From Candidatus Heimdallarchaeota archaeon (GTDB taxonomy: Archaea > Asgardarchaeota > Heimdallarchaeia > Heimdallarchaeales > JAJRWK01): a stretch of 19,899 nt of DNA. The first letter of the stretch is position 1. Each line of letters begins with the position of its first letter. The notes under the pieces are model-generated. The model was not told the DNA's origin and searched no databases. It saw only the letters and a program-made list of their open reading frames with translations. The stretch covers positions 1 to 19,899 of the forward strand of contig JAMOVR010000354.1 in assembly GCA_027061945.1 (NCBI GenBank), read 5' to 3'. Of the stretch, positions 234 through 19,899 are shown piece by piece. The translations under genes and the position numbers were made by a program.

Positions 234-3200
234 TTGCTTAAAGTGGAATATGAAACACTTTGTCCTGTATGTGGTGCTACATTAACTTTGGAAGAAATTA
301 ACAAACATATTTGTTTCCAGAAAAAAATTCCTTTATCCAAGCCATTTGAATTACATGAACTAAATACCTTTGAAACTCTGTTTAAGGACTGCGTTGGGGA
401 GCCCCGAAGTATTCAAAAGTTATGGATGAAACGTCTATTGAGAGGTGAAAGCTTCGCAGTAACTGCTCCTACCGGCATAGGAAAAACTAGGTTTGGACTA
501 GTCGCATCTCTTTTCTTTAGTTTAAAAGAAAAAAGAAGCTATTTATTATTCCCAACATCTCTTCTGGTAAAGCAAGCATATGATCTTCTTTCAAAATTTG
601 TTTCGATTATAGAAAAAAAGCATCAAAAAAAACCGAAAATTGTAGCCTACTTTTCAGACATGAAAGAAAAAGAAAAAGAGTTGGTTAAGAAATCAATTAG
701 TAATGGAGAATTTGATATTTTATTGACTACAACACAGTTCTTAACTAAAAATTTCTCTGTAGTAAGGAATAATACTATGGATTTTATTTTTGTTGATGAT
801 GTCGATTCATTATTAAAGAACTCAAGAAACGTAGAAAAAATTTTGAATCTACTTGGTTTCCGCAGGATTAATGATAAATGGTCTGGCGAGGCTAGGGGAT
901 CATTAATGGTTGCTTCTGCAACGGCAAAACCTGGAAAGTCTACAATGTTATTCAAAGAACTATTAGGTTTTGACGTTGGTGGTTCAAGTTTTGTCTTAAG
1001 AGATGTTTATGATATAATTTTAAGGAAAAAAGAGGTGAATTCATTAGAAGAAATCCTTAAAAAGATGGAAACCGGTGGTATCATTTATACTGAAAATACT
1101 GATATTGCTGAAAAATTATATGAAAAATTATCGAAAAAAGGATATAAGATTGGGTTGGTTACTGCCCAAGACAAACGTCCTTTTGAAGATTTTAAAAATA
1201 AAGATCTCGATTTTTTGATAGGTACCGCTCATTATTATGGAAGCTTAATAAGAGGCTTGGATCTGCCAGAAATAATAAAATTCGTGGTATTTTATGGTAT
1301 ACCCTCGTTTAAGGTATCAATAGATAAAATTCCTCTTGGCTTCCTAAAACAACTAATTCTGAAGTTTTATGATGAAGAATCGATGTCTGAATTTAGAGAA
1401 TTACTTAATTGGAAAACTGAAGAAGATATTGATCAAGAACTTTTAAATAAGGCTCAAGAAAGAGTAAAGTCATTATTACTTTCTAAACAAAATTATTTAA
1501 ATGATATTTCAATAATTGGAGACACCATTGTTTTTCCAGATCTAAAAACATACATACAAGGTAGTGGCCGGACATCTAGATTAATGCCTTGGGGTTTAAC
1601 TAAGGGCGCATCATTTGTTATGGAGGACAATGAATCGATCATTTCTGCTTTTATTAACAAAGCAGGTTATTATGGTATTGATTTTCAAGAATATCATGAA
1701 GTAGACTTAGAATTAATTAAAAAAGAGTTATATGTTTCTAGGACCCCAAAATTAGAAAAAACAGACATTATTAAGCCAGCGTTATTCATAGTTGAAAGTC
1801 CTACTAAAGCAAAACACATTGCCCATTATTTTGGAAGACCTAGTATAAAGAAAAAAGGCAGTATAATAGCTTATGAGGTTTCTAATGAAAAATATTTGTT
1901 AATGGTAACTGCAAGCTTAGGACATGTTACGGATTTAATAATTGGGAAGGGCTATCATGGAATTAAAATAACAGATAAAAAGGAGTTTATTCCAATTTAT
2001 TCCCCAATTTACAAATGCGCACAATGTGGATATCAAATTAGCATGGAGATTGATAAATGTCCTAAGTGTGGAAGCGAAGAGATTATTTCTTCAAAAGAAA
2101 GAATTAATGATTTACGTTCTGTTGCTTATGAAACTGAGTTAGTAATCATTGGAACGGATCCTGATTCTGAAGGAGAAAAGATTGCATGGGACCTACAGAA
2201 TTTATTGAGTCCTATTGCCAAAGTAACTCGTGCGGAGTTTCATGAAGTCACTCCTAAAGCAATTAGAACTGCCTTATCAAGCTTACGAAGTATTGACCTT
2301 GATAGGGTGGAAGCACAAGTAGTTCGTAGGATTGAAGATCGGTGGATTGGTTTTATTCTTTCTCAGCACCTGCAAGAACGCTTTAATAATAAAACATTAG
2401 CTGCTGGTAGAGTTCAAACACCCGTATTAGGGTGGATAATAAAACAAGAACAAAAATCTCGAGAGAAAATAAGAATATACGTAATAAAAGATTTTGATAT
2501 AGAATTAAAACCAATAACAGAAGATAATATCAAAGAGAGCGTTATTTTAGAGCTTGAGATCAAAGAAGTTAAAACTGAAGAAACGACTTATTCTCCTTTG
2601 CCTCCATTTACTACAGATGTAATGTTACAAGCTGCCACTCAAAAATTGGGTTTTTCAACAGCAAAAACAATGGACTTAGCCCAAAAACTGTTTGAGGCTG
2701 GATTAATTACTTATCATAGAACAGATTCTACTCATGTTAGTGATAATGGAATAAAATTAGCAAAAGCATTTTTGAAAGAAGATTTTGAAGGTCGTAGTTG
2801 GGGTGCCGCAGGAACTCATGAATGTATAAGGCCCACTAAACCTTATCCATTAACTGTTATAAGACAATTAATAAAAGAAGGCATTGTGCCAGGTGAAGAA
2901 ATCAATGAAGAGCATTTAGCGCTTTATGATTTGATTTTCCGTAGATTTATGGCAAGTCAAGCAAAAAAATTCATTGTAATAGAAAAGCACTATATTATTG
3001 AATTTGAATGGGGATCAGCAAAACAAAAAATTAATAAAAAAATTGCAGTCCATGCAGAAGGTCGTGCCCATGAATTATATCCATACGTAAAAATAAGAAA
3101 AGAGTTGCCCGTAGGTAAAGTTCGTAAAATTGCAAAGCTAGAATCTAAGCCACTAGCTATTCCTTTTAACGAGGCAGAGATTGTTAATCTAATGAAACAA

Positions 3201-3461
3201 AGGGGTATTGGCAGACCATCCACTTATGCCATAATAATTGATAAACTTTTCCAGAAAAATTATATTTTCAAGAAAAATAACCGGCTCTTTAGCACTAAAC
3301 TAGGAAAACAAATCTATGAATACTTAGAACAAAACTTTAGTCATCTGATCTCAGAAGAAAGAACCAGAAAATTAATGGAAAAAATGGATCTGGTTGAAAA
3401 AGGACAAGTGGAACCTGAGAGACTAATAGAAGAAATTTATCAAGAGACAAAAGAGATATAG
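234..3461 (+). CDS. rgy: Reverse gyrase (SF2 helicase-like domain fused to type IA topoisomerase)
   Basis: N-terminal CPVC zinc motif. Helicase motifs: Walker A APTGIGKT, motif II FVDDVD, SAT, QGSGRTSRL. TOPRIM motifs: IVESPTKA and GTDPDSEGE. Inserted zinc ribbon CAQCG..CPKCG. Catalytic-Tyr motif ITYHRTDS. TTG start at 234 lies 6 nt after AGGGTGA (221-227); GTG at 243 is an alternative start. Confidence 0.95.
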   Translation: MLKVEYETLCPVCGATLTLEEINKHICFQKKIPLSKPFELHELNTFETLFKDCVGEPRSIQKLWMKRLLRGESFAVTAPTGIGKTRFGLVASLFFSLKEKRSYLLFPTSLLVKQAYDLLSKFVSIIEKKHQKKPKIVAYFSDMKEKEKELVKKSISNGEFDILLTTTQFLTKNFSVVRNNTMDFIFVDDVDSLLKNSRNVEKILNLLGFRRINDKWSGEARGSLMVASATAKPGKSTMLFKELLGFDVGGSSFVLRDVYDIILRKKEVNSLEEILKKMETGGIIYTENTDIAEKLYEKLSKKGYKIGLVTAQDKRPFEDFKNKDLDFLIGTAHYYGSLIRGLDLPEIIKFVVFYGIPSFKVSIDKIPLGFLKQLILKFYDEESMSEFRELLNWKTEEDIDQELLNKAQERVKSLLLSKQNYLNDISIIGDTIVFPDLKTYIQGSGRTSRLMPWGLTKGASFVMEDNESIISAFINKAGYYGIDFQEYHEVDLELIKKELYVSRTPKLEKTDIIKPALFIVESPTKAKHIAHYFGRPSIKKKGSIIAYEVSNEKYLLMVTASLGHVTDLIIGKGYHGIKITDKKEFIPIYSPIYKCAQCGYQISMEIDKCPKCGSEEIISSKERINDLRSVAYETELVIIGTDPDSEGEKIAWDLQNLLSPIAKVTRAEFHEVTPKAIRTALSSLRSIDLDRVEAQVVRRIEDRWIGFILSQHLQERFNNKTLAAGRVQTPVLGWIIKQEQKSREKIRIYVIKDFDIELKPITEDNIKESVILELEIKEVKTEETTYSPLPPFTTDVMLQAATQKLGFSTAKTMDLAQKLFEAGLITYHRTDSTHVSDNGIKLAKAFLKEDFEGRSWGAAGTHECIRPTKPYPLTVIRQLIKEGIVPGEEINEEHLALYDLIFRRFMASQAKKFIVIEKHYIIEFEWGSAKQKINKKIAVHAEGRAHELYPYVKIRKELPVGKVRKIAKLESKPLAIPFNEAEIVNLMKQRGIGRPSTYAIIIDKLFQKNYIFKKNNRLFSTKLGKQIYEYLEQNFSHLISEERTRKLMEKMDLVEKGQVEPERLIEEIYQETKEI

Positions 3462-6177: not shown

Positions 6178-7131
6178 ATGATAGACAATAAGAACATAAA
6201 AGCATTAATCACTTTACTTTTGTTTGGACCTTTTTTTGGTGAAGCAGTTTCTATGTCCACACCATTATCTGCATTTATTCTTCCTCAAGTTATTATACCA
6301 TTAATGATGCTATATGGTTTAGGACTTGTAATAATACATTATCTTAAAACAACTAAGCACTTATCTACAACAAGTATTCTTTTGTTAGGTGGTGTTTATG
6401 GGATACTAGAAGAAGGCCTGAGTTTGAAAAGTTTTTTCAATCCTAACTGGAAAATAAACGAATTAGCTATTTATGGCCGTGTTTGGGGTACAAACATGGT
6501 ATGGTCTGTAAGTGTTACATTATATCATGTAGTAGTGAGTATTTGGGTACCACTTACGTTATTCGAGATTTTTTTCCCAGAGTATAAATACAAACCATTG
6601 TTAGAAAGCAAGAAATCTATTGTTTTTGCAATTATATTATATTTTTTTAGCTTATTATTGTTCTTTATAGTATGGCCTTATAAAGTCCCAACAACACCTT
6701 ATTTACTCACGATGATTATTACCGTTATTCTTTTCTTATTAGCCCTCAAACTACATGAAGATGATTTTGAAAAAGAAAAATTAACATCTTCCCCCCTCAG
6801 AATTTATTTTTCAGGTATTGCAGGATTCTTTTTATGGGTAATTTTCTCATGGTTTATGGTAGAGAGCAATATCCCCTGGGAAGTCCCATTTGCTTTAATG
6901 ATTGGACTTCCTTTATTCGTCGTTATTTTAAGTGGTGGTCTAAACAAATATTGGGATGATAAACAAAAATTAGTACTAATTACAGGAATCATGACACCGA
7001 TGATGATATTATTTCCATTTTTAACTGAAACTATTCCGCAAGCAATTGTTTCTATTATTTCAATTATTATCTTAGGAAGAGCATTCGAACATACTAAAAA
7101 AAGATCAGACCAGAACAATATTCCTTCTTGA
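6178..7131 (+). CDS. Polytopic membrane protein of unknown function
   Basis: 317 aa with about 8 hydrophobic segments. TATA-like tttataaata (6145-6154) sits ~24-33 nt upstream of the ATG with no SD, suggesting a leaderless mRNA. I recognise no family. Confidence 0.7.
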   Translation: MIDNKNIKALITLLLFGPFFGEAVSMSTPLSAFILPQVIIPLMMLYGLGLVIIHYLKTTKHLSTTSILLLGGVYGILEEGLSLKSFFNPNWKINELAIYGRVWGTNMVWSVSVTLYHVVVSIWVPLTLFEIFFPEYKYKPLLESKKSIVFAIILYFFSLLLFFIVWPYKVPTTPYLLTMIITVILFLLALKLHEDDFEKEKLTSSPLRIYFSGIAGFFLWVIFSWFMVESNIPWEVPFALMIGLPLFVVILSGGLNKYWDDKQKLVLITGIMTPMMILFPFLTETIPQAIVSIISIIILGRAFEHTKKRSDQNNIPS

Positions 7132-7197: not shown

Positions 7198-7734
7198 CTA
7201 TGTATTTTGATCTTTTTCTCTTTCTTCTTTAAGATCTTCTTCAGTTTTTGAAATTGAGCGATTTTTCTTTTTTTTCTTTTTTTTACGTTTTTTTGGTTTT
7301 GCTTCTTCATCTAAATATATTTCACTTGGTAATTGATGCTCTGGAAGATTAACTCCTCTACCCACAATCGCTCCAAACCATTGAATCACGCTAATTAAGA
7401 ACGCATACGTTATAGCATTAATTAGAATATCATAGCCAGTATTACCCCTTATGATTTCATTTATCATCTCTACTAGCGTGAAGATGATAAAAGTAATCAG
7501 TACTTGTTTAGAGACTAACTTTTTTCTTTCCATTATTCCTATAGGAACTTCTCTTATCATTACTCCTACAAAAAAAGCGGCGACAAATATCAATATCATA
7601 AAAGGAATGTAGAAGTTAGTACCCCAAACACTAAGTGAAAAAATTGTGTGTAAGAATAAAAGAATTACCGGTAATGCAAGAAATTGCTTAGGTGTCAATG
7701 AGGATTGCTGTTCTGAACTTGTCATTGGAACCAT
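7198..7734 (-). CDS. Small membrane protein (about 4 TM) with Lys-rich acidic/basic C-terminal tail
   Basis: 178-aa ORF with hydrophobic helices and the tail PKKRKKKKKKKNRS..EEDLKEEREKD. The start overlaps the upstream gene by ~47 nt in another frame, suggesting an operon. Confidence 0.6.
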   Translation of the reverse strand: MVPMTSSEQQSSLTPKQFLALPVILLFLHTIFSLSVWGTNFYIPFMILIFVAAFFVGVMIREVPIGIMERKKLVSKQVLITFIIFTLVEMINEIIRGNTGYDILINAITYAFLISVIQWFGAIVGRGVNLPEHQLPSEIYLDEEAKPKKRKKKKKKKNRSISKTEEDLKEEREKDQNT

Positions 7735-11822: not shown

Positions 11823-12629
11823 ATGAAACATCCCTCTTATAATTCAAAAGACAGGAATGCAATTAGAAATTATTATTCTAATTGGAATTATGACTGTCAA
11901 GACATAGATTTACGTTTTAGAGGAATAAAAATCATGGGGCTAGTTAGAACAATAAAAAAAAGAAAGACTAAATGGCATATATCATGGTCATGGTTACAAA
12001 AAACAATCAATAAACGCAGAGTAAATAACAACAATATTGCTATTCATTTAAGACAATATATTAACACACGAAGATTTCCTCTAAGAGTATTCATGACTTC
12101 AGTAGAGTTCTTTGATCCTAGAGCTTTAGGAAAAAGAAGATTAGGTTATCCTAGAATACTTCGCTCAGGAATAGTCTCTTTTGAAGAAGATTCTTCATTA
12201 CAAAGCTCAATTCATACTGCTCTTATATTGTCAGATGTATTAAAAAACATGCAACATAAGTTCGTTTTTACAGGAAATAAAAGTATACACGTCTGGGTTT
12301 TAGACTTTAAGTGGGAAGAATGGGTCCCCAAAAAATATTTGGTTAGAAATTATTATAAAGCACACTTAAGAGAAGTCAGTGAATATTTAGCTCGAAAAAA
12401 TTTTTTCGAATGGGTTGCTGAAACGAGTGGGGTTAAGAACTTAGATCGTAGCACTACTACCGATACAAGAAGGGTTATCCCGGTGCTTGATACTTTAAAT
12501 GCATTGACATGGAGAAAAGTCATTGAACTTAACCGTAAGGAACTTGAACTAGATGATCCTAATTATATACAGGGAGTGGCGAATGTCCGCTCCCTAATAG
12601 GGGATGGACTGCCCAGACGGGCGGGATGA
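11823..12629 (+). CDS. Compact archaeo-eukaryotic primase small-subunit-like protein (PriS-like)
   Basis: AEP motifs in the right order: IRNYYSNW and FPLRVFMTSVEFFDP in the N-terminal region; motif I IVSFEEDSS (ExD in place of DxD); motif II FTGNKSIHVWV; motif III LDRSTTTDTRRVIPVLDTLN. The last ~19 codons run into a GC-rich RNA-like element, so the true 3' end is uncertain. Confidence 0.6.
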   Translation: MKHPSYNSKDRNAIRNYYSNWNYDCQDIDLRFRGIKIMGLVRTIKKRKTKWHISWSWLQKTINKRRVNNNNIAIHLRQYINTRRFPLRVFMTSVEFFDPRALGKRRLGYPRILRSGIVSFEEDSSLQSSIHTALILSDVLKNMQHKFVFTGNKSIHVWVLDFKWEEWVPKKYLVRNYYKAHLREVSEYLARKNFFEWVAETSGVKNLDRSTTTDTRRVIPVLDTLNALTWRKVIELNRKELELDDPNYIQGVANVRSLIGDGLPRRAG

Positions 12630-19093: not shown

Positions 19094-19414
19094 TTATTTG
19101 TTTTTAGTATCAGGTTCAGGAGGATATTTCTCACCTCTCTCTTCGTATTCTTTTTGTCTCTCCCGAATCACCGAATCTAATTTCTGTAAATCTTCGACCA
19201 TAATCCCCTTGGCGCTAAAAATATTTTTATGTTCTAAGAGAACACATTTAATTCGGGTTTTGCATTCTTCGGGAGTAATTTTGTCGGCCCAACTGCAATA
19301 TAGTCTTTCAATGTGGTGACATGGAGGATGTTCTAACGGTAAATACGCGTGGAACCACAGTTTCTGCTTGCCTATACCAAAATGGATTTCTTGATACCAT
19401 GCTTTTGAACTCAT
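19094..19414 (-). CDS. Hypothetical 106-aa protein (Cys/His-containing N-terminal half, acidic/basic tail)
   Basis: Open frame with non-repetitive composition. Its ATG overlaps the stop of an upstream small ORF (TAATG). No family recognised. Confidence 0.5.
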   Translation of the reverse strand: MSSKAWYQEIHFGIGKQKLWFHAYLPLEHPPCHHIERLYCSWADKITPEECKTRIKCVLLEHKNIFSAKGIMVEDLQKLDSVIRERQKEYEERGEKYPPEPDTKNK

Positions 19415-19515: not shown

Positions 19516-19706
19516 TTTAACGGGAGGATCATGGTATTTGCAGTACACGAAAATTCCCAATTGAAATTATTTCTAAAATATCCAAAAATTTTTGCTTAAA
19601 CACAAAAAAAGATGTTCCTAAGTGCAGGTCCAAACATTAAAAATAGATTATTTATAATAGTAACACCTATTATGTTACGTTATTACGTAATTAATTATGT
19701 CTTTTT

Positions 19707-19721
19707 CGCAAAGCATTTATT
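19707..19721 (+). promoter_or_regulatory. BRE/TATA-like promoter for the 5S transcript
   Basis: cgcaaag (BRE-like, purine-rich) followed by catttatt, centred ~27-33 nt upstream of 19745-19751. Confidence 0.4.
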
Positions 19722-19750
19722 GTTTTTGTGTTGAAATGTTTTTGCTGGTG

Positions 19751-19894
19751 TGCCGTCGTGACCGTAAGTCAAGCCGGCTGGCGTGCCAGTTGGTAGTGAG
19801 CTGTGCTCGCGAAGGCTGGCAAGTCCTGGCTCGCCAGGACCATAGCGGCCGGGTGATACCCGCTCCCATCCCGAACGCGGAAATCGCGACGGCA
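19751..19894 (+). rRNA. 5S rRNA gene with circularly permuted segment order
   Basis: 19833-19882 carries the 5S 5' part (GCCAGGAC CAUAGCGGCCGGG..ACCCGC UCCCAUCCCGAAC GCGGAA). 19768-19830 carries the 3' part (GUCAAGCCGGCUGGCG..GGUAGUGAGCUGUGCUCGCGAA..GUCCUGGC). The halves are in reversed order. The flanks 19751-19761/19884-19894 are complementary. Confidence 0.8.
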
Positions 19895-19899
19895 TTTTT
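19895..19899 (+). terminator. Oligo-T tract immediately after the 5S terminal helix (runs off the window)
   Basis: TTTTT directly follows 19894. Archaeal termination commonly occurs at oligo-T. Confidence 0.4.

What the first reader, a model, noticed from the sequence alone, without database searches (positions are those of the whole stretch)
19751..19894. Circularly permuted 5S rRNA gene with a new terminal helix
On the + strand, 19768-19830 (GUCAAGCCGGCUGGCGUGCCAGUUGGUAGUGAGCUGUGCUCGCGAAGGCUGGCAAGUCCUGGC) is the 3' two-thirds of a 5S rRNA. It contains the helix II 3' strand, loop-E-like GGUAGUG/GCGAA, the helix IV hairpin GAGC-UGU-GCUC and the helix I 3' strand. Only 2 nt later (UC, 19831-19832) comes 19833-19882 (GCCAGGACCAUAGCGGCCGGGUGAUACCCGCUCCCAUCCCGAACGCGGAA), the 5' third. 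That part contains the helix I 5' strand, CAUAGCGG, loop C closed by CCGC/GCGG, and the AA bulge. Joining 19882 to 19768 in silico recreates the near-universal CGGAAGUYAAGCC string and a collinear 5S of ~113 nt. The native helix I strands (19823-19830 / 19833-19840) are perfectly complementary and become a capped hairpin. The new ends are held by UGCCGUCGUGA (19751-19761) pairing with UCGCGACGGCA (19884-19894): 10 Watson-Crick pairs plus 1 G-U. A BRE/TATA-like box lies upstream and T5 lies downstream. It is not a tandem repeat: the sequence upstream of 19762 is not a 5S 5' half, and the sequence after 19883 diverges from 5S. Two models fit. In the first, the mature 5S is stably permuted, with an extra 11-bp helix emerging at the helix III AA bulge. 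In the second, the ends are ligated into a circle and re-opened at the helix I cap, as for permuted tRNA genes and circular archaeal pre-rRNA intermediates. I see no canonical bulge-helix-bulge at the junction, which favours the first model, but the window ends at 19899.
Basis: partly seen in the sequence, partly recalled or inferred. Interest (0 to 1): 0.9.

Follow-up and report, generated by a model that had tools for sequence, protein, structure and literature searches.

The report
Permuted 5S rRNA gene, Asgard archaea
This thermophilic Asgard archaeon and its relatives encode 5S ribosomal RNA with the two parts in swapped order, flanked by a tRNA-splicing-type signal that should cut and rejoin the transcript into an intact, probably circular, 5S RNA, which would explain why no 5S gene could be found in complete Heimdallarchaeum genomes.

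Summary
Window 19768-19882 is a complete 5S rRNA in circularly permuted order. A covariance model built only from ordinary 5S rRNAs that I permuted in silico matches it end to end (68 bits, E 6e-17). Rfam's own model sees only the 5' half, below threshold.

The same arrangement occurs in at least 20 distinct sequences. The named ones are all Asgard MAGs, including the complete Ca. Heimdallarchaeum aukensis genome, whose authors reported that no 5S gene could be predicted.

The leader and trailer do form a bulge-helix-bulge-like motif:
- a 12-bp outer helix (19750-61 / 19884-95);
- a 4-bp helix, CCGU 19762-65 with GCGG 19877-80;
- two 3-nt bulges (19766-68 and 19881-83).

Symmetric cleavage inside the bulges followed by ligation gives exactly ...CGCGGAA-GUCAAGCC..., the collinear 5S sequence. 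This holds in other lineages that have different helix sequences and a register shifted by one base.

Helix I is closed by conserved UNCG-type tetraloops. The mature RNA is therefore most likely a 115-nt circle, as with the permuted SRP RNA of Thermoproteus. Cleavage, ligation and circularity are inferred, not shown. I found no published description.

The parts
19710..19721 (+). Promoter-like element: AAAGC (BRE-like) followed by ATTTATT (TATA-like), about 30 nt upstream of the leader helix.
   Evidence: Read from the sequence. TTTATA-like boxes preceded by AAAG lie 25-40 nt upstream of the outer helix in most relatives (L155). The transcription start is inferred, not shown.
19750..19761 (+). 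Leader strand of outer helix A (GUGCCGUCGUGA).
   Evidence: Pairs with 19884-19895, 12 bp. 0 of 20,000 flank shuffles reach this length. It covaries across lineages. It is present in the MFE fold at 37 and 70 C.
19762..19765 (+). 5' strand of the central 4-bp helix H (CCGU).
   Evidence: Pairs with GCGG 19877-80 and is contiguous with helix A. The partner covaries: CCGC/GCGG, CAGG/CCUG, CGGG/CCUG, CGUG/CACG, CGGG/CCCG. The conformer with H forced is within 0.7-1.0 kcal/mol of the MFE.
19766..19768 (+). Bulge b1 (AAG). Under the canonical rule the 5' cut falls after A19767, so the product starts at G19768.
   Evidence: Geometry. The start coincides with the first base of the full-length R1 match. 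Cleavage itself is inferred.
19768..19829 (+). 3' part of 5S rRNA (Rfam positions 52 to the end): base of helix III, loop B, helix II 3' strand, loop A, helix V, loop E, helix IV hairpin, helix I 3' strand.
   Evidence: R1 full-length match. Helices are supported by covariation in alignment A2. The rejoined product folds as a canonical three-way 5S.
19830..19833 (+). CUCG tetraloop capping helix I, at the site where an ordinary 5S has its two ends.
   Evidence: Relatives have UUCG, UACG, UGCG or CACG here, and L140 has a 6-nt loop. The hairpin stem is 99.2% paired with 6 of 8 pairs covarying.
19834..19882 (+). 5' part of 5S rRNA (Rfam positions about 2-51): helix I 5' strand, CAUA, helix II 5' strand, helix III with loop C (CCCAUCCCGAAC), and the AA bulge.
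   Evidence: Rfam RF00001 positions 1-52, 35.9 bits; R1.
19877..19880 (+). GCGG: 3' strand of native helix III (partner CCGC 19860-63) and, in the precursor, 3' strand of helix H (partner CCGU 19762-65).
19881..19883 (+). Bulge b2 (AAA). Under the canonical rule the 3' cut falls after A19882, so the product ends at A19882.
   Evidence: Geometry. The end coincides with the last base of the R1 match. Cleavage is inferred.
19884..19895 (+). Trailer strand of outer helix A (UCGCGACGGCAU).
19895..19899 (+). T-run (TTTTT), a likely archaeal terminator, cut by the window end.
   Evidence: Relatives have T4-T8 directly after the trailer helix and then unrelated sequence.

Best explanation
This is the working 5S rRNA gene of a thermophilic Asgard archaeon, encoded in circularly permuted order.

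1. It is a self-contained transcription unit (TATA-like box, about 150-nt RNA, oligo-T).
2. In the primary transcript the leader and trailer pair into a 12-bp helix. This helix continues without a break into a 4-bp helix, made by leader CCGU and the 3' strand of helix III (GCGG).
3. The result is a bulge-helix-bulge-like motif with two 3-nt bulges (AAG and AAA).
4. The tRNA splicing endonuclease cuts inside both bulges. RtcB-type ligase joins A19882 to G19768, which rebuilds the normal helix III with its AA bulge.
5. The product is a 115-nt covalently closed 5S rRNA. Helix I, where ordinary 5S RNAs have their ends, is closed by a stable tetraloop. I think this circle is the form that enters the ribosome.

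Shown here: the permuted order, the completeness of the 5S, the motif geometry, and its conservation and covariation.
Inferred: transcription limits, cleavage, ligation and circularity.
For: Full-length permuted 5S:
- R1, built from in-silico-permuted ordinary 5S only, scores 68 bits (E 5.6e-17) on exactly 19768-19882. It scores 60-85 bits on 19 related elements.
- In alignment A2, 95.8% of cells are paired and 20 of 25 pairs show compensatory changes. 0 of 500 shuffles reach this.

Motif:
- A strict A-H-bulge / H'-bulge-A' geometry occurs in 9 distinct lineages. A is 5-15 bp and H is 4 bp.
- Every lineage pairs 5/5 proximal A positions and 4/4 H positions with its own partner strand. Partners swapped between lineages pair only 2.4/5 and 2.3/4 on average.
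- The predicted junction is the collinear sequence in all of them. This includes lineages where the register is shifted by one base: L106 (b1 AAA, b2 GAU) and L129 (b2 GAA).
- The BHB conformer is nearly isoenergetic with the native fold.

Cap: 4-nt UNCG-type loops in nearly all lineages.

Only 5S gene:
- Rfam finds no 5S at gathering score in the window or in six related Asgard loci.
- The authors of the complete Heimdallarchaeum genomes state that 5S genes 'could not be predicted' (PMC8813620). Ca. H. aukensis carries the permuted gene (L107).

Precedents:
- The Thermoproteus permuted SRP RNA is cut at a leader-trailer BHB by the splicing endonuclease and is circular when mature (PMC4731332).
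- E. coli tolerates a 5S whose native ends are closed by a tetraloop (PMC7283268).
Against: - There is no RNA data, so no cut, ligation or circle has been observed.
- The motif lacks the second flanking helix of a strict hBHBh' motif: nothing pairs beyond b1. It therefore needs an endonuclease that accepts relaxed substrates, and the enzyme type in this lineage was not examined.
- In one clade (8 sequences, including L007 and L126) a hairpin of about 30 nt separates helix A from H. In L141, H has a G.A mismatch.
- The unconstrained MFE fold of the window transcript prefers native helix III plus the outer helix. That is what a stably permuted RNA would look like.
- The exact cut position within a bulge (after the second base) comes from my own knowledge. 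The product is the same for a cut after base 1 or base 2.
- A paper lists a '5S rRNA gene' for one Jordarchaeum MAG (PMC9723677); I did not check it.
Confidence: 0.6

Rival explanations
1. Stably permuted linear 5S. The transcript is not cut at the motif. The mature RNA keeps its ends at helix III, held by the extra 12-bp helix projecting from the AA bulge.
For: The MFE fold of the window transcript is the native 5S plus the outer helix. The outer helix is conserved by covariation. Permuted 5S RNAs that stay permuted exist in brown-algal mitochondria (PMC4267664).
Against: - It does not explain why 4 leader bases next to the helix always complement the 3' strand of helix III, which would compete with the native fold.
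- It does not explain why exactly 3 unpaired bases are kept on each strand.
- The appendage would vary from 5 to 15 bp, with extra hairpins and outer helices in some lineages, at a conserved site of the ribosome.
Confidence: 0.12
2. Circular intermediate re-opened at the helix I cap. Cutting and ligation at the motif are followed by cleavage in the CUCG loop. This gives a conventional linear 5S.
For: Permuted tRNA precursors and circular pre-16S/23S rRNAs are re-opened after ligation (PMC4267664; PMC8339473).
Against: - The cap is only 4 nt and is a UNCG-type tetraloop in nearly all lineages, closing a fully paired covarying stem. That looks like a structural element, not a spacer with a processing signal.
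- No enzyme is known that would open it.
- Capped helix I is functional in E. coli.
Confidence: 0.12
3. Cut but not ligated. The endonuclease removes leader and trailer, and the mature 5S is a linear permuted RNA with a nick in the helix III bulge.
For: The same motif evidence as the main explanation. Ligation is the step with the least sequence evidence. In P. furiosus, ligation of 23S is slightly less efficient than cleavage (PMC7758197).
Against: In archaea, RNAs released from BHB motifs are generally circularised: tRNA introns, pre-rRNAs and the SRP RNA. In Thermoproteus the unligated SRP RNA binds its proteins poorly.
Confidence: 0.12
4. Assembly artefact or dead rearranged pseudogene.
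For: The element sits at the very end of the contig, and at the ends of several other contigs.
Against: - The same junctions occur in many independent assemblies.
- They occur inside long contigs: L006, L155 (45 kb), and L107 in a closed 3.08-Mb genome.
- There is extensive compensatory covariation.
- Promoter and terminator signals are conserved.
- Contig ends are explained by the element being a repeat longer than k.
Confidence: 0.02

Closest known systems
Permuted SRP RNA gene of Thermoproteus tenax and T. uzoniensis (Plagens et al. 2015, PMC4731332)
   Same: A universal structured RNA whose canonical gene was 'missing'. The gene is permuted, with its own TATA promoter. A short leader and trailer fold into a BHB. 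In Thermoproteus the splicing endonuclease cuts the BHB and the ends are ligated, restoring the functional element in a circular mature RNA. Here the gene order and the motif are shown, and the cut, ligation and circle are predicted by analogy.
   Different: The RNA is different (5S rRNA, a ribosome component) and so is the phylum (Asgard, not Thermoproteota). The distribution here is much wider. Processing and circularity were demonstrated there and are only predicted here.
Circularly permuted tRNA genes (Cyanidioschyzon merolae; cited in PMC4267664)
   Same: The 3' half is encoded before the 5' half. The ends of the precursor form a BHB, and there is a circular intermediate.
   Different: In tRNAs the circle is re-opened at the linker between the native ends. 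Here the linker is a 4-nt stable tetraloop and is probably kept.
BHB processing stems of archaeal 16S/23S pre-rRNA; circularly permuted or circular 23S (PMC7758197, PMC12918454, PMC8339473)
   Same: A leader-trailer helix with a 3-4-3 BHB, cut by the endonuclease EndA and ligated. In some archaea the circular or permuted form is the mature one.
   Different: Those genes are collinear in the DNA. 5S rRNA was explicitly considered not to use this pathway (PMC12918454).
Permuted mitochondrial 5S rRNA of brown algae (Valach et al. 2014, PMC4267664; Rfam mtPerm-5S)
   Same: A 5S rRNA in which helix I is a closed hairpin and the ends lie elsewhere.
   Different: There the ends lie at the open three-way junction, there is no leader-trailer helix or BHB, and the RNA stays permuted. 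No Rfam family other than RF00001 gives a meaningful hit here.
Engineered cp5S rRNA in E. coli (Huang et al. 2020, PMC7283268)
   Same: Native 5S ends joined by a tetraloop, with the RNA opened elsewhere. The resulting ribosomes are functional.
   Different: That construct is artificial, opened at loop C or D, and inserted into 23S rRNA.

Membership tests
5S rRNA (Rfam RF00001) | Collinear full-length match to the covariance model at or above the gathering score (38 bits) | tested here: not met
   No hit at gathering score in the window. Only positions 1-52 or 1-68 match, at 35.9 and 27.7 bits.
5S rRNA (Rfam RF00001) | All structural elements present (helices I-V, loop C CCCAUCCCGAAC, loop E, AA bulge) once the order is corrected | tested here: met
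   The permuted-order model R1, built from ordinary 5S only, gives 68 bits over 121/121 positions at 19768-19882. Covariation is seen in helices I, II, III and IV. The rejoined RNA folds as a three-way 5S.
5S rRNA (Rfam RF00001) | It is the 5S used by the organism (no other 5S gene; incorporated into 50S) | not testable with these tools
   Only 19.9 kb of this genome is available. Indirect support: no 5S could be predicted in complete Heimdallarchaeum genomes (PMC8813620), and one of these carries the permuted gene (L107).
Permuted RNA genes matured through a leader-trailer BHB (permuted tRNA, Thermoproteus SRP RNA) | 3' part of the RNA encoded upstream of the 5' part in one transcription unit | tested here: met
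Permuted RNA genes matured through a leader-trailer BHB (permuted tRNA, Thermoproteus SRP RNA) | Central 4-bp helix flanked by 3-nt bulge(s), formed by leader and trailer at the ends of the mature sequence | tested here: met
   A 12 bp, H CCGU/GCGG, b1 AAG, b2 AAA. The geometry is kept with covariation in 9 lineages. Both bulges are present. The helix beyond b1 is absent, so the motif is relaxed (hBH) rather than strict (hBHBh').
Permuted RNA genes matured through a leader-trailer BHB (permuted tRNA, Thermoproteus SRP RNA) | Cutting in the bulges and joining restores the canonical sequence | tested here: met
   In silico only...AACGCGGAA.GUCAAGCC..., with equivalents in every strict lineage. 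The product limits equal the limits of the R1 match.
Permuted RNA genes matured through a leader-trailer BHB (permuted tRNA, Thermoproteus SRP RNA) | Cleavage by splicing endonuclease and ligation demonstrated (junction reads, in vitro cleavage) | not testable with these tools
   No transcriptome or enzyme data are available. The junction 20-mers are absent from all 1.16 Mb of fetched DNA, so they are usable as RNA-only markers.
Brown-algal mitochondrial permuted 5S (mtPerm-5S) | Ends at the junction of the alpha and gamma domains; match to the mtPerm-5S model | tested here: not met
   The break here is in the helix III bulge, between Rfam positions 51 and 52. The Rfam E-value scan of 19600-19899 lists only RF00001 and two chance hits.

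The most novel reading that the evidence does not exclude
In a large part of the Asgard archaea (several Heimdallarchaeia lineages and Jordarchaeia), the ribosome contains a covalently circular 5S rRNA. It is made from a permuted gene by the tRNA splicing machinery. The permutation would be a single ancient rearrangement and could serve as a rare genomic marker for branching order around the origin of eukaryotes, which have collinear 5S genes.
Probability: 0.4. Interest if true: 0.9.

Novelty: new variant of a known kind. Interest (0 to 1): 0.85.

Why it matters
- It explains a documented gap. 5S rRNA genes could not be predicted in the closed Heimdallarchaeum genomes (PMC8813620), and standard Rfam-based annotation misses the gene here.
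- It extends the 'permuted gene plus BHB plus circularisation' route, which among universal structured RNAs in archaea was so far described only for the SRP RNA of two Thermoproteus species (permuted tRNA genes use it too). The new case is a ribosomal RNA that was thought not to use this route, in the archaeal group closest to eukaryotes.
- It predicts a naturally circular 5S rRNA in ribosomes.
- It gives annotators a concrete model and gives experimenters RNA-only junction sequences to look for.
- The presence or absence of the permutation across Asgard lineages is a discrete character that can be mapped on the tree.

Tried and rejected
- Rfam on the 3' piece alone (19766-19831) gave no hit. 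I replaced it with a permuted-order model built from ordinary 5S.
- Relic of a tandem duplication: I tested whether the leader and trailer resemble the organism's own 5S halves. Local alignment scores were no better than shuffles in 10 lineages, so I dropped the idea.
- Calibrating the cut position on intron-containing tRNAs of the same lineages: ARAGORN found no intron-bearing tRNA in 26 loci.
- A literature search for the exact cut position inside BHB bulges gave nothing usable. PMC7758197 says only 'symmetrical positions within the bulges'.
- Extending the window: the TFB protein with its first start codon was not on record. With the second start it led to a contig that also ends in the element.
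- Protein synteny between the window and the loci of relatives: none. Only the 147-nt element is shared.
- The first genome-collection pattern was too loose: 120 rows, mostly tandem bacterial 5S genes and chance hits.
- H alone is not significant in a single sequence. 75-97% of shuffles give some 4-bp H in the scanned range. The evidence lies in its contiguity with A, the fixed 3-nt bulges and the covariation.

Full report
**What is there.** The window has about 33% G+C, but 19750-19895 has 63-66%. Rfam finds nothing in the window at gathering score and ARAGORN finds no tRNA.

With relaxed thresholds RF00001 matches only the 5' half of a 5S rRNA. It gives 27.7 bits when run on 19600-19899. It gives 35.9 bits (E 8e-7, model positions 1-52) when the stretch is cut at 19883. 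The upstream piece 19766-19831 gives no Rfam hit on its own. The break lies between model positions 51 and 52. That is after the AA bulge of helix III and before the 'GU' that closes the base of that helix.

**Direct test of the permutation.** Rfam could not be run on a rearranged string, so I permuted the model instead.
- I took 17 ordinary 5S genes (6 archaeal, 11 bacterial) that Rfam scores at 75-95 bits in loci fetched for other reasons.
- I cut each before G52, joined its native ends with TTCG, and aligned the results.
- I built covariance model R1 from that alignment. No Asgard sequence went into it.
- R1 matches window 19768-19882 over all 121 positions with 68.0 bits, E 5.6e-17.
- Ordinary collinear 5S genes reach only 39-46 bits with R1.

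The window therefore holds one complete 5S rRNA in permuted order.

**It is not an artefact.**
- An independently assembled contig (L001) is identical across the element.
- Two collection scans, using patterns that demand a 3'-half motif upstream of loop C, found the same arrangement in many places.
- Named genomes that carry it are Ca. Heimdallarchaeota S139_metabat2_scaf2bin.022 (L006), 'archaeon Dive96_bin2.176' (L072, L043, L108), Ca. Heimdallarchaeota bin51 (L007), the closed genome of Ca. Heimdallarchaeum aukensis PM71 (L107) and Ca. Jordarchaeia QC4 (L106). Fourteen further metagenome loci also carry it.
- All score 60-85 bits, full length, with R1.
- None of the six that I tested has a 5S hit at Rfam's gathering score.
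- In the model-based alignment of 20 elements (18 distinct), 95.8% of cells are paired and 20 of 25 pairs show compensatory changes. 0 of 500 shuffles reach the observed values, and slid controls give 29-48% pairing.
- The hairpin that replaces the open end of helix I is 99.2% paired, with 6 of 8 pairs covarying.

**Host.**
- The window encodes a reverse gyrase (234-3461), TFB and aIF5B.
- The aIF5B's best named relatives are almost all Asgard: Heimdallarchaeaceae, Heimdallarchaeum endolithica, Kariarchaeaceae, Gerdarchaeota, Thor and Odin.
- An unnamed 84%-identical protein lies in the same MAG as L006.

The host is therefore a thermophilic Asgard archaeon, filed by NCBI under Heimdallarchaeota.

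The outer helix is 12 bp (G19750-A19761 with U19884-U19895).
- Immediately 3' of it on the leader, CCGU (19762-65) can pair with GCGG (19877-80).
- In the native 5S, GCGG is the 3' strand of helix III and pairs with CCGC 19860-63.
- This leaves AAA (19881-83) bulged between GCGG and the trailer helix. It leaves AAG (19766-68) unpaired after CCGU.
- So two 3-nt bulges sit on opposite strands, separated by a 4-bp helix. This is the 3-4-3 core of the archaeal bulge-helix-bulge motif as defined in PMC4731332 and PMC7758197.

A script that enforces this geometry finds it in nine distinct lineages:

| Lineage | Helix A | Helix H | b2 |
|---|---|---|---|
| window | 12 bp | CCGU/GCGG | AAA |
| L006 | 10 bp | CCGU/GCGG | AAA |
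| L072 | 9 bp | CCGC/GCGG | AAA |
| L136 | 13 bp | CCGU/GCGG | AAA |
| L106 | 15 bp | CGUG/CACG | GAU |
| L129 and L145 | 15 bp | CGUG/CACG | GAA |
| L140 | 10 bp | CGGG/CCCG | AUA |
| L107 / L142 / L153 | 5 bp | CAGG/CCUG | AAA |

- The helix sequences are unrelated between lineages, yet each lineage pairs 5/5 and 4/4 with its own partner. Swapped partners pair 2.4/5 and 2.3/4 on average.
- Flank shuffles never reach the observed helix A length in four of six lineages tested.
- A 4-bp H alone is common by chance. The evidence is its contiguity with A, the fixed bulge sizes and the covariation.

**What cutting and joining would make.** BHB motifs are cut at symmetrical positions within the two bulges and the ends are ligated (PMC7758197). 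By my knowledge of tRNA introns the cut falls after the second bulge base.
- For the window this gives a 115-nt product, G19768 to A19882, with the junction ...AACGCGGAA-GUCAAGCC.... That is the near-universal collinear string.
- The product limits are exactly the limits of the R1 match.
- A cut after the first bulge base would give the same product.
- In L106 and L129 the motif sits one base further 5' in 5S numbering. The bulges have different sequences, yet the product is again ...CACGGAAGUCAAGCC.... In the Heimdallarchaeum type it is ...CCUGAAAGUUAAGCC..., where the first A pairs in helix III.
- A register that moves while the product stays canonical is hard to explain unless the motif is used.
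- The conformer with H formed lies within 0.7-1.0 kcal/mol of the MFE at 37 and 70 C. The rejoined RNA folds into the standard three-way 5S.

**Fate of the product.** The former ends of helix I are bridged by 4 bases: CUCG here, and UUCG, UACG, UGCG or CACG elsewhere. One lineage has a 6-nt loop.
- A short, extra-stable UNCG-type cap on a covarying stem looks structural. It does not look like a spacer to be cut.
- E. coli ribosomes accept a 5S whose native ends are closed by a tetraloop (PMC7283268).
- The closest precedent is the permuted SRP RNA of Thermoproteus, which stays circular.
- Mature circular or permuted 23S rRNAs are reported in archaea.

I therefore favour a circular mature 5S. 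The remaining probability is split between a nicked product, re-opening at the cap, and an unprocessed RNA carrying an extra helix.

**Transcription unit and copy number.**
- TATA-like boxes preceded by AAAG lie 25-40 nt upstream of the outer helix in most lineages. T-runs follow the trailer within 0-25 nt.
- The element is a repeat. L043 and L108 are identical for 141 nt and then diverge.
- L155 and L006 come from organisms with an identical aIF5B, and they carry the element in unrelated contexts.
- The k=141 contigs L001 and L072 end exactly 140 nt after the first base of the outer helix (window 19750; L072 3907).
- This explains why the window ends at 19899. It indicates at least two copies per genome in the relatives and probably in this one too, from where its contigs end.

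**Caveats.**
- There is no RNA evidence.
- The motif lacks a helix beyond b1, so it is a relaxed BHB.
- In a clade of eight sequences a hairpin of about 30 nt sits between helices A and H. L141 has a mismatch in H.

**Literature.**
- Full-text searches for permuted or circular 5S in archaea or Asgard found only the mitochondrial case and unrelated work.
- Wu et al. 2022 state that 5S genes could not be predicted in their closed Heimdallarchaeum genomes.
- A 2026 paper states that 5S rRNAs, unlike 16S and 23S, are not processed through circularisation.
- The held library lacks most subscription journals, so prior description cannot be excluded.

Noticed in passing
window 234-3461 (+): A 1075-aa ORF with helicase (DEAD, Helicase_C), Toprim and Topoisom_bac domains, that is, a reverse gyrase. 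It marks the host as a (hyper)thermophile, which fits a 33% G+C genome carrying a 63-66% G+C RNA.
   Followed up: partly
window 19889-19899; L001 1; L072 4046; L043 and L108 1-141; L155 21451-21565: Contigs end in or start with the element. The k=141 contigs L001 and L072 stop exactly 140 nt after the first base of the outer helix. L043 and L108 share 141 nt and then diverge. L155 and L006 hold the element in unrelated contexts in organisms with an identical aIF5B. The transcription unit is therefore a repeat with at least 2 copies per genome.
   Followed up: yes
L007, L126, L128, L133, L134, L139, L148, L152 (about 50 nt upstream of the 5S body): In this clade the leader carries a conserved 7-bp hairpin between the outer-helix strand and the 4-bp helix. 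It also carries a second NCAG next to the outer helix that can pair with CUG(A). The result is a three-way junction instead of a plain bulge-helix-bulge.
   Followed up: partly
L007 7201-7283, L107 6779-6865, L126 468-552, L128 6196-6280, L134, L139, L142, L146, L153: A tRNA-Ser(GCU) gene lies roughly 150-300 nt from the permuted 5S on the opposite strand in the Heimdallarchaeum-type loci. This is conserved local synteny that is absent from the window's lineage.
   Followed up: no
L155 21452-21670 (-): The source's gene caller placed a 72-aa ORF on the opposite strand over the permuted 5S. It is probably a spurious protein prediction caused by the unannotated RNA.
   Followed up: no
window 6178-7131, 7198-7734, 11823-12629, 19094-19414: Four ORFs of 106-317 aa have no Pfam match. 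The 268-aa ORF after aIF5B has a 267-aa counterpart in the same position in L155 and L156.
   Followed up: no
L005, L086, L088, L112, L114 (bacterial loci from the first scan): Firmicutes MAGs carry two full 5S genes in tandem, only 5-12 nt apart and flanked by tRNAs. These are the main false positives for any 'permuted order' pattern.
   Followed up: partly
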